DNA of 63,424 bases, the filler included, from Octopus bimaculoides (taxonomy: Eukaryota), in NCBI RefSeq assembly GCF_001194135.2. It is 5 parts of 5 records of this genome, joined end to end, with 100 filler letters (N's around TTAATTAATTAA, not from the genome) between each part and the next. Parts side by side here need not be neighbours in the genome. Positions count along the whole stretch, not along the records: positions 1 to 16,353 come from NC_068984.1; positions 16,454 to 25,411 come from NC_068990.1; positions 25,512 to 35,448 come from NC_068996.1; positions 35,549 to 61,519 come from NC_068983.1; 1 more part is not named here. One strand, given 5' to 3'. The translations under genes and the position numbers were made by a program. Shown in pieces: positions 13,021 through 54,873 of this stretch. The notes beneath the pieces were generated by a model. It saw nothing but the letters and a program-made list of their open reading frames with translations, did no database searches and had not been told where the DNA came from. Every line of letters starts with the position of its first letter. The stretch's first letter is position 1.

Positions 13021-13975
13021 GGGGGACGAGTGTATAGCTGTGTTTGTTGGTCTGTTTTTCCTGTAATGGATAAGGTTGTGCGTGTGTGTGATTGGTTATG
13101 TTAGGGTGCAGTGTGTAATGTGTCTGTGAGAATCTATATATGTGGTAGTACAAATCATGTGAAGAGGTATGTGTTGGGGTGGGAGAGACAGTTTATTATG
13201 TGAGGTGTCTGACTTATAGAGGTGTGTGCATGTCCGCCTTATAGGGTGTGTGTGTGTGTGTCTGCCTTATAGTAGTGTGTGCATGTCCACCTTATAGCTG
13301 TGTTTGCATGGATGTGTGTTTTGGTCAAACTCTTTTTGCTGGGCTCAATGGCATTGGTGGAAGGTCACTTGTGAAAGGTCGAGGCAGGGGACTTGTGGTT
13401 GCAGTCATGGTGGGGCATGCAGGTACAATAGAATGTACTTCCTTTCATGCGGCAAGAATTAAACAACTCACTCCTGCTATTCAGGTAAACATCCGAGCAT
13501 TCGGTACTTTTTAAAATCACTCTCTTCTCTGCCAGGCATAATCTGCACTTTCTGCTGCTATTGAAATGTGGTTTGCATCTTTCTATGATCTTCTATTTTA
13601 TGCTGTACTCCATGGCACTTTCTTTCAGAGTCCAGACTGCTTGGCTAGGGTTGTGATGTTATGTTTCTTGGGGATGTTGAATGAGGACTTGTTATTAAAG
13701 CAGGTTCTGAAGGGGCCTTCCTACATACTTCCACATGCTCAGTTGTCTATAGGGTCCTCTTGTTACTTCTGCTTATAAACAACTGTTTCCATATTGCAGT
13801 GGCCATTTAGTGGACAAGTTATGTTACTCCTGCATGAGCATCCTACCTCAGCCTTGAATTTGGGTCTATCTACTAAAATCTTTTTTACACTAGGTGCACA
13901 GTTAAAGGATAATCTCAGGGTATGTCTATTAAATATTTTGTTGAATCTATTGGTTCGGGGGAAGTGCTTATCAAT
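13021..13975 (-). mobile_element. Penelope-like element, inverted (left) arm
   Basis: Minus strand IDKHFPRTNRFNKIFNRHTLRLSFNCAPSVKKIL..CSCRSNITCPLNGHCNMETVVYK; it is the reverse complement of ~14180-15105. Confidence 0.88.
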
Positions 13976-15450
13976 CTCCAGCTTGTCTTCAAGCAAAAAG
14001 ATCTTTGATGGTGCTACCCTATACTACAACCAGGCTCTGACTACCAGCAGTTTCAAGGATATTAGTTACATGCCAGACCCTAGCCCCCAAGAGCAAGCAC
14101 CATCAGAAAGTACTGTGGTTCACACTACCATTCTCTTTTAACATAAAGACCAGAGTAGGTAAGATCTTCCTTAGGTTAGTTGATAGACACTTCCCCTGAA
14201 CCAATAGATTCAACAAAATATTTAATAGACATACTCTGAGATTATCCTTTAGCTGTGCACCTAGTGTAAAAAAGATTTTAGTAGGTAGACCCAGACCTGA
14301 GGCTGAGGCAGGATACTCATGCGGGGCAACACATCTTGTCCACTAAACGGCCACTGCAATATGGAAACATCTGTTTACGAGGCAGAAATAACAGCAACAG
14401 GAGCCAATGGACAACTGAGCATGCAGAAGTATGTGAGAGGAACAGAAGGCCCCTTCTGAACCCACTTTAATTACAACAAGTCCTCATTCAACATCCTAGA
14501 GAGACTTAATGCCACAACCCTAGCCAAGTACATCTGGACTCTGAAAGAAAGTGCCACGGAGTACAGCATAAAGTGGAAGATTCTAGAAAGATGCAAACCA
14601 TACTTCAATAGCAGCAGGAAGTCCAAATTATGCCTGGCTGAGAAGAAAACAATTTCAAAAGGTATCCAACGCCTGGTTGTTTACCTGAGTAGCAGGAGTG
14701 AGGTGTTTAATCCTTGCCTGCATGAAAGGAAGTACATTCTATTGTACCTGCATGCCTCACTATAACTACAACCACAGGTCCCCTGCCTCGACTTTCCGCA
14801 GACAACCTTCCACCAATGCCCTTGAGCCTGGCAAAAAGAGTTTGACTAAAACACACACCAAAGCACCCATGTACACACGCGCGCACATCACTATAAGGTG
14901 GACATGCACACACTCCTATAAGGTGGACACCCCACATAATAAACTGTTTCCCCCATCCCCAACACATACCCCTTCACACAATTTGTACCCCCACATATAT
15001 ACAGACCCCACACACACATTGCACACTGCACACTAACGTACTCCCTAACTTTATCTGTTACAGAAAGAAAACGAACCAATAAAGACAGCTATATATACCT
15101 AGACCCCCAGAAAAAATTACACACATGACACTGTTACACTTACCACACACCCCATCCCCACAGGACAGCACATTTCCTCACTTCAAGATAACTCTTGCCG
15201 ACTTCAGAGGACATAACTCCTAAACCAATCCCCTGGCCCTTTTTTCGTTCCACCACCTTTTTCATAGCAACCGCTGACCAGCTGTGCTAACCCACCTCTG
15301 ATAATAGAGAGCAGTTGCCATATTCCCTTCCATATCGGCTAACTCTGATGAGTGTAAATTGATATAACCAGTTTGTTACCTGACACTCCCTTGTATTCTT
15401 TACATGAAACTGATTGGTAAGACCAGCCATAATGGATATTTAATACTATA
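13968..15450 (+). mobile_element. Penelope-like element, 5'-truncated: RT thumb, GIY-YIG endonuclease remnant, 3' region with hammerhead
   Basis: ISSLSSSKKIFDGATLYYNQAL, RKVLWFTLPFSFNIKTRVGKIFLRLVDRHFP, KIFNRHTLRLSFSC, CPLNGHC, VYEAEI..KYVRGTEGPF, TTLAKYIWTLK, KWKILERCKPY, LCLAEK match PLE RT-thumb and GIY-YIG C-terminal motifs. Confidence 0.88.
15337..15428 (+). ncRNA. Type-I hammerhead ribozyme motif (partly decayed) in the PLE 3' region
   Basis: Stem I GGCTAACT/AGACCAGCC (imperfect); core CTGATGA 15345-51; stem II GTGTAAA/TTTACAT with a long loop; GAAAC 15406-10; GTA cleavage triplet 15417-19. Confidence 0.65.
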
Positions 15451-15526
15451 CATTTCAGATAATATATCCACCCTACTGACAGATATATGAGTGCATCTTT
15501 TCACTGACTTATTGTCTCTTAGATGA

Positions 15527-15573
<47 letters not shown>

Positions 15574-15609
15574 TATATAGGTATATGTACATGTATGTAC
15601 ATACCTTCA

Positions 15610-53450: not shown

Positions 53451-53496
53451 AACACAACGTTTCGGTTGATATACCCTCCAGCCTTCTTCAGGTGTC
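53451..53496 (-). ncRNA. Minimal type-I hammerhead ribozyme
   Basis: GACAC-CTGAAGA-A-GGCTG-gagggtatat-CAACC-GAAAC-GTT-GTGTT: stem I GACAC/GTGTT, stem II with one mismatch, palindromic ACGT stem III, GUU cleavage triplet. Confidence 0.8.
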
Positions 53497-53596
53497 TTGG
53501 GGAAATTTTGAACCTGGGTTCTCATTCCTAAGGTATTTTTCGATGTTACTATTATCATTATTATTATTATTATTATTATTGTTCAGGTCACTGCTT

Positions 53597-53656
53597 GGAA
53601 TCGAACTCGGAATCTTGGGGTTAGTAGCCCGCGCTGTTAACCACTACGCCATATGC
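53597..53656 (-). promoter_or_regulatory. tRNA-derived Pol III internal promoter (A and B boxes)
   Basis: A-box TGGCGTAGTGG (53641-51), GGG-CTACTAA-CCC anticodon-like arm, B-box GAGTTCGATTCC (53597-608). Confidence 0.85.
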
Positions 53657-54873
53657 GTAGATGAGAACAAATATCTGTCGAATGTAAATAATGTAAATAA
53701 TGTACATAATTCCTCATCTCTTAAATATAGAATATGTAGCAGAAGTTTAACATCAATTCCATGAGACTTTTAATGCCGTATCACATTCTTTTGACATCTA
53801 CTAACCATCAAATACCGAAGTTCTGCTCATCATGAAAGTTGGAAAGGAACTTCTCCGAAAGTATTCTGATTGATAGCAAAAGACATGCACTCAGAGGAGT
53901 TGCAGAACTCTGCTGCAATATGTCATCAGAAAAGAGGCTGCATAAATACCATACAAACAAAAGGTCTTACACGGTTACATATCTAGAAGGCTTCAAAATG
54001 ACAGCAACATTAACAACCAGAGTAATTTATCCTTGACGAACAACCTGAACATTACCTTTCACTTTGAAGGCTATACAGGAGAAAAAATACCTGATATACA
54101 AAATGGATAGGGATACAAATATATCACATAGCTTGATAAAAGATACAAGCTTTGTTCTGACGGCTTTATCTACATGTGAAACACACTCTTGTGGTTTGGT
54201 CAATATATAACGAAACCTGTGGAAAGGATAATCTTGAGGAAATACATATAAGAAACTACGGTGATCTGAATAGTATAATCACACATAACTCGACGTATTT
54301 TTGAAACATTCTTGTCGAGACTTTAATAAAATGCAAGGCCAACAGATTTGATAGAAAAAAGAAACTATGCTGAGTTGTTGAAAATGGTTGCCCAACAAAT
54401 ATCAACATAATAAAAAGCGAAAATCGATACCAAACTGCTCCTGCAGTTAGTTTCCCAAGTGACATGGATCATTGCTTAGGAGTTTGCGAATCCACTATAC
54501 AAAGTACACGTGAAGCTTTCTATTAATTATTACTGGAATGACAGGATTTGTATCGTATTTCGTGGATCAAAACATGGCCGGACTTTAGTTCTAGAAGAAA
54601 GGATTCAACGCTACAGAGGACAATGAAATGTAAGACAGTAAAAATTTCCACAAAAGATAAATGGCTGCTTGAAGAATGAGTAACGGAACAAGATTATTTC
54701 CTTTATAACGTTTCGACTGAGTATTTGGCCGGTTAAAAGGAGTTCTAAAATTCCAATCAAAAAGGGAACAACGTAGATATATCCATACATACACATGTAC
54801 ATAGTTCGTGCGTATGATTATAAGTGAACGAAGTTTGTCTGTATGTGTTTGGTATGTAGTAGAGCTAACCATC

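What the first reader, a model, noticed from the sequence alone, without database searches (positions are those of the whole stretch)
13021..53744. Recurring 'diverging twin 3' ends + hammerhead' architecture in three unrelated insertions
Seen: the PLE at 13.0-15.45 kb, the element at 44.7-45.4 kb and the tRNA-headed element at 53.4-53.7 kb share no obvious sequence similarity. All three consist of a longer sense copy joined head-to-head to a shorter inverted copy of its 3' part, and all carry an HHR motif. Further HHR-like remnants lie at ~15.8, 31.66, 36.2 and 48.27 kb. Inference: one integration mechanism (priming from both nicked target strands, each on an RNA 3' end) is used by a community of PLE-dependent RNAs in this genome.
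Basis: partly seen in the sequence, partly recalled or inferred. Interest (0 to 1): 0.75.

Follow-up and report, generated by a model that had tools for sequence, protein, structure and literature searches.

The report
Twin-ended Penelope insertions, one tRNA-headed
The three back-to-back repeats are truncated copies of three different protein-coding Penelope-type jumping genes, a known layout that likely arises when both cut DNA strands each start a copy; one family opens its end repeat with a tRNA-like block that may act as an unusual promoter.

Summary
The layout is real and recurs genome-wide, but the elements are not dependent RNAs. All three run upstream into ORFs of three autonomous Penelope-like element (PLE) families (Hydra-, Neptune- and Poseidon-like by motif). 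Only the 53.4-kb copy is an intact twin-ended insertion (12-bp TSD); the 13-kb and 44.7-kb copies have each lost one 3' end. Head-to-head arms, a tail, TSDs and hammerheads are published PLE features. Added here: head-to-head pairs in 38 of 68 position-ordered loci of the 53.4-kb family versus 0 of 30 for a control SINE; the tail sits on exactly one arm in 62 of 66 readable pairs across four families; it sits on the shorter arm in 22 of 34, which simple fold-back cannot make. This supports priming on both target strands at two RNA start sites (inferred). The 53.4-kb family's terminal repeat opens with tRNA-type A/B boxes, where 27 of 32 arms reaching it stop; a Pol III promoter is possible but untested. 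The scan noted this tRNA-headed PLE before in other genomes, and the PLE reading in this genome. The 48.3-kb remnant is an ORF-less tandem repeat, the only dependent-RNA candidate.

The parts
13033..14005 (-). E1 inverted arm: 5'-truncated PLE copy (GIY-YIG end and part of the 3' UTR); lacks the last ~430 nt including the hammerhead
13995..15529 (+). E1 sense arm, Hydra-like PLE (CxCx5C linker, no CCHH): broken ORF end, 3' UTR/pLTR, first 3' end ~15463, tail ~15468-15529, then (TA)n
15335..15420 (+). E1 type I hammerhead motif, core CUGAUGA at 15345, palindromic helix III
   Evidence: (core intact in 37 of 43 family copies)
44407..44661 (-). Tail-bearing 3' end of a further, Neptune-like PLE family; its 5' end folds back (palindrome 44639-44686) and joins the E2 long arm
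44681..45222 (-). E2 long arm: 3' UTR/pLTR of a Neptune-like autonomous PLE, 3' end lost
44735..44770 (-). E2 minimal hammerhead, U3-A8 core variant UUGAUAA; G10.1-C11.1 pair absent
   Evidence: (40 of 58 family copies)
45220..45454 (+). E2 short arm, tail-less 3' end in (TA)n; decayed hammerhead at ~45336-45368
47751..47806 (-). F48 short inverted arm (first 3' end, in (TA)n)
47804..48420 (+). F48: 1.3 tandem units of a ~470-nt ORF-less repeat with hammerhead motif at ~48270-48325; retrozyme-like; right 3' end lost
53384..53395 (+). Left target-site duplication, 12 bp
53397..53657 (-). E3 long arm: solo pLTR of a Poseidon-like PLE, ends at the first (tail-less) 3' site
53583..53657 (-). tRNA-like head with A box (53641-53651) and B box (53598-53606) at tRNA spacing, followed by (AAT)n; cloverleaf stems decayed
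   Evidence: sequence; box consensus recalled
53452..53498 (-). E3 minimal type I hammerhead (core at 53491), inside the predicted coding region that starts at ATG 53525-53523
53659..53732 (+). E3 short arm with the ~31-nt tail (~53702-53732)
53733..53744 (+). Right target-site duplication, 12 bp
15700..15790 (-). Remnant with hammerhead core pieces in permuted order (GAAA before CUGAUGA); separate repeat family; no inverted arm
31655..31700 (+). Decayed hammerhead-like remnant (helix II intact, core changed); no inverted arm
36130..36246 (-). Hammerhead-like remnant (core CUGUUGA) of a common family, split by a later tRNA-like SINE; no inverted arm

Best explanation
The three insertions are 5'-truncated copies of three different protein-coding Penelope-like retrotransposon families, and their head-to-head layout likely forms when the element's enzyme nicks both target strands about 12 bases apart and starts one cDNA at each of two fixed sites in the RNA. 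Shown: family identity, two fixed 3' end points per family (31, ~37, ~60 and ~120 nt apart), one arm per end point, variable TSDs, short shared sequence at the inner junctions. Inferred: a protein dimer primes one strand at the first site and the other at the tail site; the two cDNAs, both antisense, join at their 3' ends by 2-5-nt inverted microhomology or a short palindrome, and repair fills in. The hammerhead is a passenger of the terminal repeat, not the cause. In the 53.4-kb family the transcript likely starts a few bases before the tRNA-like block, so priming at the pLTR/ORF junction yields solo-pLTR copies that look like a SINE. The 48.3-kb tandem repeat is likely a non-autonomous passenger of the same route.
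For: ORFs upstream of each family: E3 (RVT_1 E 5e-14); E2 (GIY-YIG PF01541 E 2.9e-6); E1. Head-to-head pairs in position-ordered samples: E3 38 of 68, E1 11 of 29, E2 7 of 29, F48 9 of 15; control SINE 0 of 30 (Fisher P 1e-8); random positions 2 of 150. Tail on exactly one arm: E3 36 of 38, none with two, P 2.5e-9 against independent arms; E1 13 of 13; E2 4 of 4; F48 9 of 11. Tail on the shorter arm 22, longer arm 12. TSD in 25 of 35 pairs, 8-16 bp, mode 12, against 33 of 1190 cross-locus pairings. Junction overlap of 2 nt or more in 18 of 33 (3 are head palindromes, 1 a mis-call) against 15% by chance. In vitro, the anole PLE cuts and extends both strands, starts at two sites that bound the tail, is predicted to dimerise and does not need hammerhead cleavage (PMC11167929).
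Against: No biochemistry here; two of the three window copies are not intact twins. 30 of 68 E3 loci are not twin-ended, several full-length with a TSD and one end only, so a one-primer route exists too. Twin loci are hit twice by a pattern; the corrected E3 share is about 39%. Two F48 pairs run past the first end on both arms and two E3 pairs have no tail. Frangieh et al. saw no difference in start site between strands in vitro, which does not explain strict pairing. Arms of one insertion are no more alike than arms of different insertions (7.7% vs 8.3% differences), so one RNA versus two is open. The 36.2-kb hammerhead family shows no inverted arms (0 of 21). E1 proteins match no Pfam family; clades rest on motifs, not a tree.
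Confidence: 0.75

Rival explanations
1. One target-primed cDNA folds back on itself and copies its own start (self-priming on an antisense template, proposed in PMC3846280), giving the inverted arm.
For: 332 exact head palindromes in the genome; fold-back joints at 44639-44686 and in many E3 loci.
Against: A fold-back copy cannot hold 3' sequence its template lacks, yet the tail is on the shorter arm alone in 22 of 34 pairs, including the window's 53.4-kb copy. In fold-back loci the arm beyond the turn mostly carries the tail. Fold-back explains some junctions, not the second end.
Confidence: 0.12
2. One reading: unrelated non-coding RNAs (a SINE, a retrozyme) borrow one PLE's enzyme in trans.
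For: E3 short copies outnumber ORF-linked ones (5214 exact hits of a 3' 30-mer, 642 of a 27-mer just upstream of the head); 27 of 32 arms stop at the head; F48 is ORF-less in the loci seen.
Against: E1, E2 and E3 each join their own ORF; tails are unrelated between families; no variant marks solo E3 copies as a separate lineage (52 solo vs 38 ORF-linked arms). True at most for F48, and possibly for re-transcribed solo E3 pLTRs.
Confidence: 0.12
3. On the tRNA head only: it is a passive tRNA-derived insert; copies stop there because of a Pol II start (TATA-like motif ~28 nt upstream) or the self-complementary GCCC/GGGC end, not a Pol III start.
For: Known PLE promoters are Pol II-type (PMC2377424); the element must be translated; the lack of T4 runs is only weakly significant and G4 runs are absent too; RNA-seq shows no start pile-up.
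Against: Intact A and B boxes at tRNA spacing exactly where copies begin; ten-fold jump in truncation rate there; no T4 run in 2645 nt, against 5 in E1 and 19 in E2.
Confidence: 0.5
4. The arms are terminal inverted repeats of DNA transposons or MITEs.
For: The E2 arms (~208 bp) look like TIRs in the window.
Against: Arm lengths differ from locus to locus, the outer ends differ by the tail, TSDs vary from 8 to 16 bp, and the families encode RT and GIY-YIG, not a transposase.
Confidence: 0.01

Closest known systems
Endonuclease-bearing PLE insertions with inverted pLTR and tail (Arkhipova et al. 2013, PMC3846280; Craig et al. 2021, PMC8557442; passages read)
   Same: [quoted passage not shown]
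   Different: They give no count of tail pairing in the passages seen and favour self-priming or endonuclease resolution; here pairing is counted (62 of 66) and the tail is often on the shorter arm. Tails of ~60 and ~120 nt exceed their 30-40 nt.
Poseidon of Anolis carolinensis, PAc (Frangieh et al. 2024, PMC11167929; results text read)
   Same: Both strands cut and extended, two RT start sites bounding the tail, tail and hammerhead inside the ORF start, predicted dimer.
   Different: No tRNA-like head reported; no strand-to-site coupling seen in vitro; inverted insertions not modelled.
[quoted passage not shown]
   Same: Palindromic helix III, extra base after position 9, U3-A8 variant, pairs on opposite strands 100-700 bp apart.
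   Different: E2 lacks the G10.1-C11.1 pair; no cleavage tested here.
Metazoan non-LTR retrozymes (PMC7229834, passages; bioRxiv 10.64898/2026.07.22.740005, first fifth and a term search)
   Same: F48 is a tandem, ORF-less, hammerhead-bearing unit; the preprint derives retrozymes from PLEs.
   Different: Neither text mentions inverted arms or tails in the searches made; F48 shows that PLE insertion signature. No circular RNA shown.
Small-RNA-headed terminal repeats: TRIMp3 Helenus/Cassandra (PMC10886601, passages); Schistosoma Sm-alpha (via review PMC6765202, passages)
   Same: tRNA-derived boxes in a terminal repeat or beside a hammerhead.
   Different: Those are non-coding; E3's head belongs to an element with an ~840-codon ORF. 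PMC10886601 argues autonomous partners must use Pol II.

Membership tests
EN+ Penelope-like elements | Single ORF with RT and C-terminal GIY-YIG endonuclease | tested here: met
   E3: RVT_1 hit and GIY-YIG-type motif in one frame of the family majority sequence (no Pfam hit for its EN). E2: PF01541, RT pieces. E1: motifs only.
EN+ Penelope-like elements | pLTR from partial tandems, tail equal to the ORF start | tested here: met
   E3: pLTR and tail run into the ORF in tandem loci. Not traced for E1 and E2.
EN+ Penelope-like elements | Inverted 5'-truncated copy, tail at one end, variable TSD | tested here: met
EN+ Penelope-like elements | Hammerhead motif in the pLTR | tested here: met
   Descriptor and family tallies; no Rfam hit
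EN+ Penelope-like elements | Hammerhead self-cleavage | not testable with these tools
   needs an in vitro assay
Penelope/Poseidon clade (E3) | CCHH in EN, no CX2-5CxxC linker | tested here: met
   read against the definition
Hydra clade (E1) | CxCX5C linker, no CCHH, (TA)n targets | tested here: met
Neptune or Nematis clade (E2) | CX2-5CxxC linker plus CCHH, C-terminal EN | tested here: met
   the choice of Neptune over Nematis is recalled from the EN motif
All three clades | Placement in an RT phylogeny with reference PLEs | not tested
   no reference sequences fetched
tRNA-derived SINE (E3) | A and B boxes at the 5' end | tested here: met
   sequence; ARAGORN and Rfam negative
tRNA-derived SINE (E3) | Non-autonomous unit whose head is not part of the partner element | tested here: not met
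   the head lies directly after the ORF stop of the autonomous element
tRNA-derived SINE (E3) | Transcribed by Pol III | tested here: inconclusive
   5'-end pile-up, weak T4 avoidance, unstranded RNA-seq without start pile-up
Non-LTR retrozyme (F48) | Tandem ORF-less units each with a type I hammerhead | tested here: met
   44 loci fetched with overlap; the single tblastn hit (L361) belongs to another family
Non-LTR retrozyme (F48) | Abundant circular monomer RNA | tested here: inconclusive
   59 and 43 reads in about 6% of two RNA runs; such libraries may miss circles
DNA transposon / MITE | Equal TIRs and a fixed TA/TTAA TSD | tested here: not met

The most novel reading that the evidence does not exclude
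An autonomous, protein-coding Penelope retrotransposon has captured a tRNA-type RNA polymerase III promoter in its terminal repeat, transcribes its whole 2.6-kb unit (free of T4 terminators) from it and sheds thousands of SINE-like solo repeats; and PLEs of three clades plus a retrozyme-like passenger integrate through a dimer whose two subunits are hard-wired to two different RNA start sites, one per target strand.
Probability: 0.3. Interest if true: 0.75.

Novelty: new variant of a known kind. Interest (0 to 1): 0.45.

Why it matters
How PLEs make inverted ends and tails is called undefined in PMC8557442. The one-tail rule, with tails on short arms, turns it into a direct prediction for the existing anole in vitro system: each target strand is primed at a different RNA site within one event. 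The same signature in an ORF-less tandem repeat would tie retrozymes to PLE enzymes by mechanism. A Pol III-type promoter on a coding retrotransposon would be unusual and would show a SINE arising from inside its own autonomous parent. The layout itself is ordinary for PLEs.

Tried and rejected
Rfam and ARAGORN: no hammerhead or tRNA hit. Single-strand folds of nine motif regions: none better than shuffles. Strict descriptor on locus flanks: only 2 scorable hits, too few to test the link with inverted arms. My first reading of E3 as a free SINE was dropped when the leader search led into an ORF. Shared variants between paired arms: 8 in 2685 sites within, 123 in 83194 between; too few to tell one RNA from two, and open to gene conversion. 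Solo versus ORF-linked pLTRs: no solo-specific lineage; three variants mark an older ORF-linked subset; samples were picked by different exact patterns. T4 avoidance: P 0.033 by codon shuffle, 0.08 and 0.24 by Markov models; weak. Overlap between TSD and element ends averaged 1-2 nt but had no control; not counted. The automatic E2 pairing used a loose anchor and gave false pairs; E2 counts come read by hand, and one E1 pair (L231) was re-read by hand. Run search: no RNA holder listed on record. RNA reads laid: unstranded, species label may differ, no start or cleavage pile-up. PDB search: only distant RTs. Junction scripts failed and were redone; one search used wrong coordinates. Paper searches showed no PLE with a tRNA-derived pLTR and no twin-priming model for PLEs; the library lacks most subscription papers, Repbase and Dfam could not be searched, and supplements (notably File S1 of PMC8557442, and those of the preprint) were not seen and may list these families.
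Full report
Setting. The window is a pack of five stretches. The 13-kb element (E1) lies on contig C4; the 44.7-kb (E2) and 53.4-kb (E3) elements lie on C3. The host looks like an octopus from recalled repeat families and from scan notes; no call of mine tested this.

Observation. The three inverted pairs exist and share no sequence. A relaxed type I hammerhead descriptor hits all three: 6 window hits against a mean of 0.9 in 60 shuffles. A strict one keeps only the E2 left arm; Rfam and ARAGORN find nothing. 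Family tallies show the cores were sound: CUGAUGA in 37 of 43 E1 copies and a CUGANGA core in 63 of 75 matches at E3 loci; UUGAUAA, the published U3-A8 variant, in 40 of 58 E2 copies. Only E3 is an intact twin: TSD, tail-less long arm, tail-bearing short arm, TSD. E1's inverted arm ends about 430 nt short of the first family end. E2's long arm has lost its end and joins, through a 48-nt fold-back, the tail-bearing end of another Neptune-like family.

What they are. E2 relatives extend 5' into a GIY-YIG ORF. E1 carries the ORF end in the window. E3 looked like a SINE, but a few copies held a leader; a search for it gave 642 exact hits, and most of the 30 loci fetched run upstream into the family ORF, four for the whole 1.5 kb held. 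Longer stretches gave RT, and in tandem loci the pLTR and tail run on into the ORF. By the motif definitions in PMC8557442, E1 is Hydra-like, E2 Neptune-like and E3 Poseidon-like; no tree was built. The 48.27-kb remnant (F48) is a ~470-nt tandem unit; arms cross unit borders and never reach an ORF in the loci fetched. The 15.8-, 31.66- and 36.2-kb remnants have no inverted arm, and the 36.2-kb family shows 0 of 21.

Family counts. Exact-pattern searches list places in genome order, so the samples are blind to layout. E3: 5214 hits; the first 68 distinct loci (two duplicates dropped) gave 38 twin-ended, 6 with other inverted pieces and 24 single; two of the singles hold an 8-14-nt inverted tail stub. 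Twins have two chances to be hit, so their share of insertions is nearer 39%. E1: 11 of 29; E2: 7 of 29; F48: 9 of 15; the 1.5-kb flanks miss long E1 and E2 arms. A control SINE without hammerhead (21136 hits) gave 0 of 30; random positions 2 of 150.

The one-tail rule. Each family has two fixed 3' ends. In twins, exactly one arm carries the tail: E3 36 of 38 (2 with none, 0 with both; P 2.5e-9 against independent arms), E1 13 of 13, E2 4 of 4 readable, F48 9 of 11; 62 of 66 in all. The tail is on the shorter arm in 22 and the longer in 12 of 34 E3 pairs. TSDs were called in 25 of 35 pairs (8-16 bp, mode 12) against 33 of 1190 mismatched pairings. Inner junctions share 2 nt or more in 18 of 33 cases, 14 of 29 without head palindromes and one mis-call, against 15% by chance.

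Mechanism. Shown: identity, ends, pairing, TSDs, junctions. From print: the anole PLE cuts and extends both strands, starts at two sites that bound the tail, is predicted to be a dimer and needs no hammerhead cleavage (PMC11167929). Inferred: staggered nicks about 12 bp apart; one strand primed at the first site, the other at the tail site; two antisense cDNAs joined end to end by microhomology or a palindrome; repair completes both strands. Pure fold-back (PMC3846280) cannot put a tail on a short arm whose template lacks it, though 332 exact head palindromes show that self-complementary ends shape many junctions. In 15 such loci the internally deleted arm was mostly the tail-bearing one, a weak hint that the tail-primed enzyme trails the other on one RNA; arm identity cannot settle this, and the two-family unit at 44.4-45.45 kb hints, on one case, at two RNAs. 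About half of E3 insertions have one end only, so a one-primer route also operates.

The tRNA head. The E3 pLTR begins 30-odd nt after the ORF stop with tRNA-type A and B boxes at tRNA spacing (box consensus recalled), then (AAT)n, the predicted start codon and the hammerhead. Of 94 arms with a readable 5' end, 32 reach the head's edge and 27 stop within -12..+5; the stop rate is 0.047 per nt against 0.004-0.007 in the 200 nt before. A TATA-like motif overlaps the stop codon about 28 nt before a start at -6. The 2645-nt family majority sequence has no T4 run (E1 has 5, E2 19), but the support is weak: P 0.033, 0.08 and 0.24 under three null models, and G4 is absent too. Three RNA runs cover the pLTR deeply but are unstranded and show no start pile-up. 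Solo copies form no distinct lineage. So the RNA likely starts at the head; whether Pol III makes it is open. Priming at the first pLTR/ORF junction of the full transcript would already explain the many solo copies.

Comparison with print. Head-to-head arms, a one-sided tail, TSDs and junction palindromes are described in PMC3846280 and PMC8557442 (passages); opposite-strand hammerhead pairs in PMC4209133 (passages); retrozymes as PLE derivatives in a 2026 preprint (first fifth and term search) and PMC7229834 (passages). Known PLE promoters are Pol II-type (PMC2377424, passages); tRNA-derived terminal repeats are known from non-coding elements (PMC10886601 and PMC6765202, passages). PMC6962438 (passages) added nothing. 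Nine searches found no tRNA-headed PLE and no twin-priming model for PLEs; supplements, Repbase and Dfam were not seen. The scan's own notes record the PLE reading in this genome and the tRNA-headed PLE in other genomes; I had stated both readings before opening them, and they are not independent support.

Verdict. The counted one-tail rule and the tRNA-headed autonomous family are the parts worth following. New variant of a known kind; interest 0.45.

Noticed in passing
window 44407-44686 (L031, L361, L367, L022): Tail-bearing end of a fourth PLE family joined directly to E2, so the 44.4-45.45-kb unit has a tail end from one family and a tail-less end from another: one event with two RNAs, or a later insertion with deletion.
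   Followed up: partly
window 12925-13020: 95 nt between the E1 inverted arm and the (TA)n tract, with a small GC-rich hairpin; no match in about 1.1 Mb of fetched loci.
   Followed up: partly
   Followed up: partly
window 15700-15790 (-); L093, L297, L290, L017: Core pieces in permuted order with three helices that pair in relatives; resembles the motif of scan note e1-8806550.
   Followed up: partly
window 56730-59100: Inverted pair (291 bp, 87%) of an RTE-like LINE piece about 1.8 kb apart; family name recalled.
   Followed up: no
window 42716-44057: Tandem array with a period of about 175 bp.
   Followed up: no
window 36247-36650: A tRNA-like SINE inserted into the 36.2-kb hammerhead motif with a direct repeat on both sides.
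   Followed up: no
window 22900-23130: Repeat with a CUGAGGA motif and a relative in L146, next to a (TG)n tract.
   Followed up: no
L112:1054-1566: Direct tandem of two E3 pLTRs, tail joined to the next head, inside another repeat.
   Followed up: no
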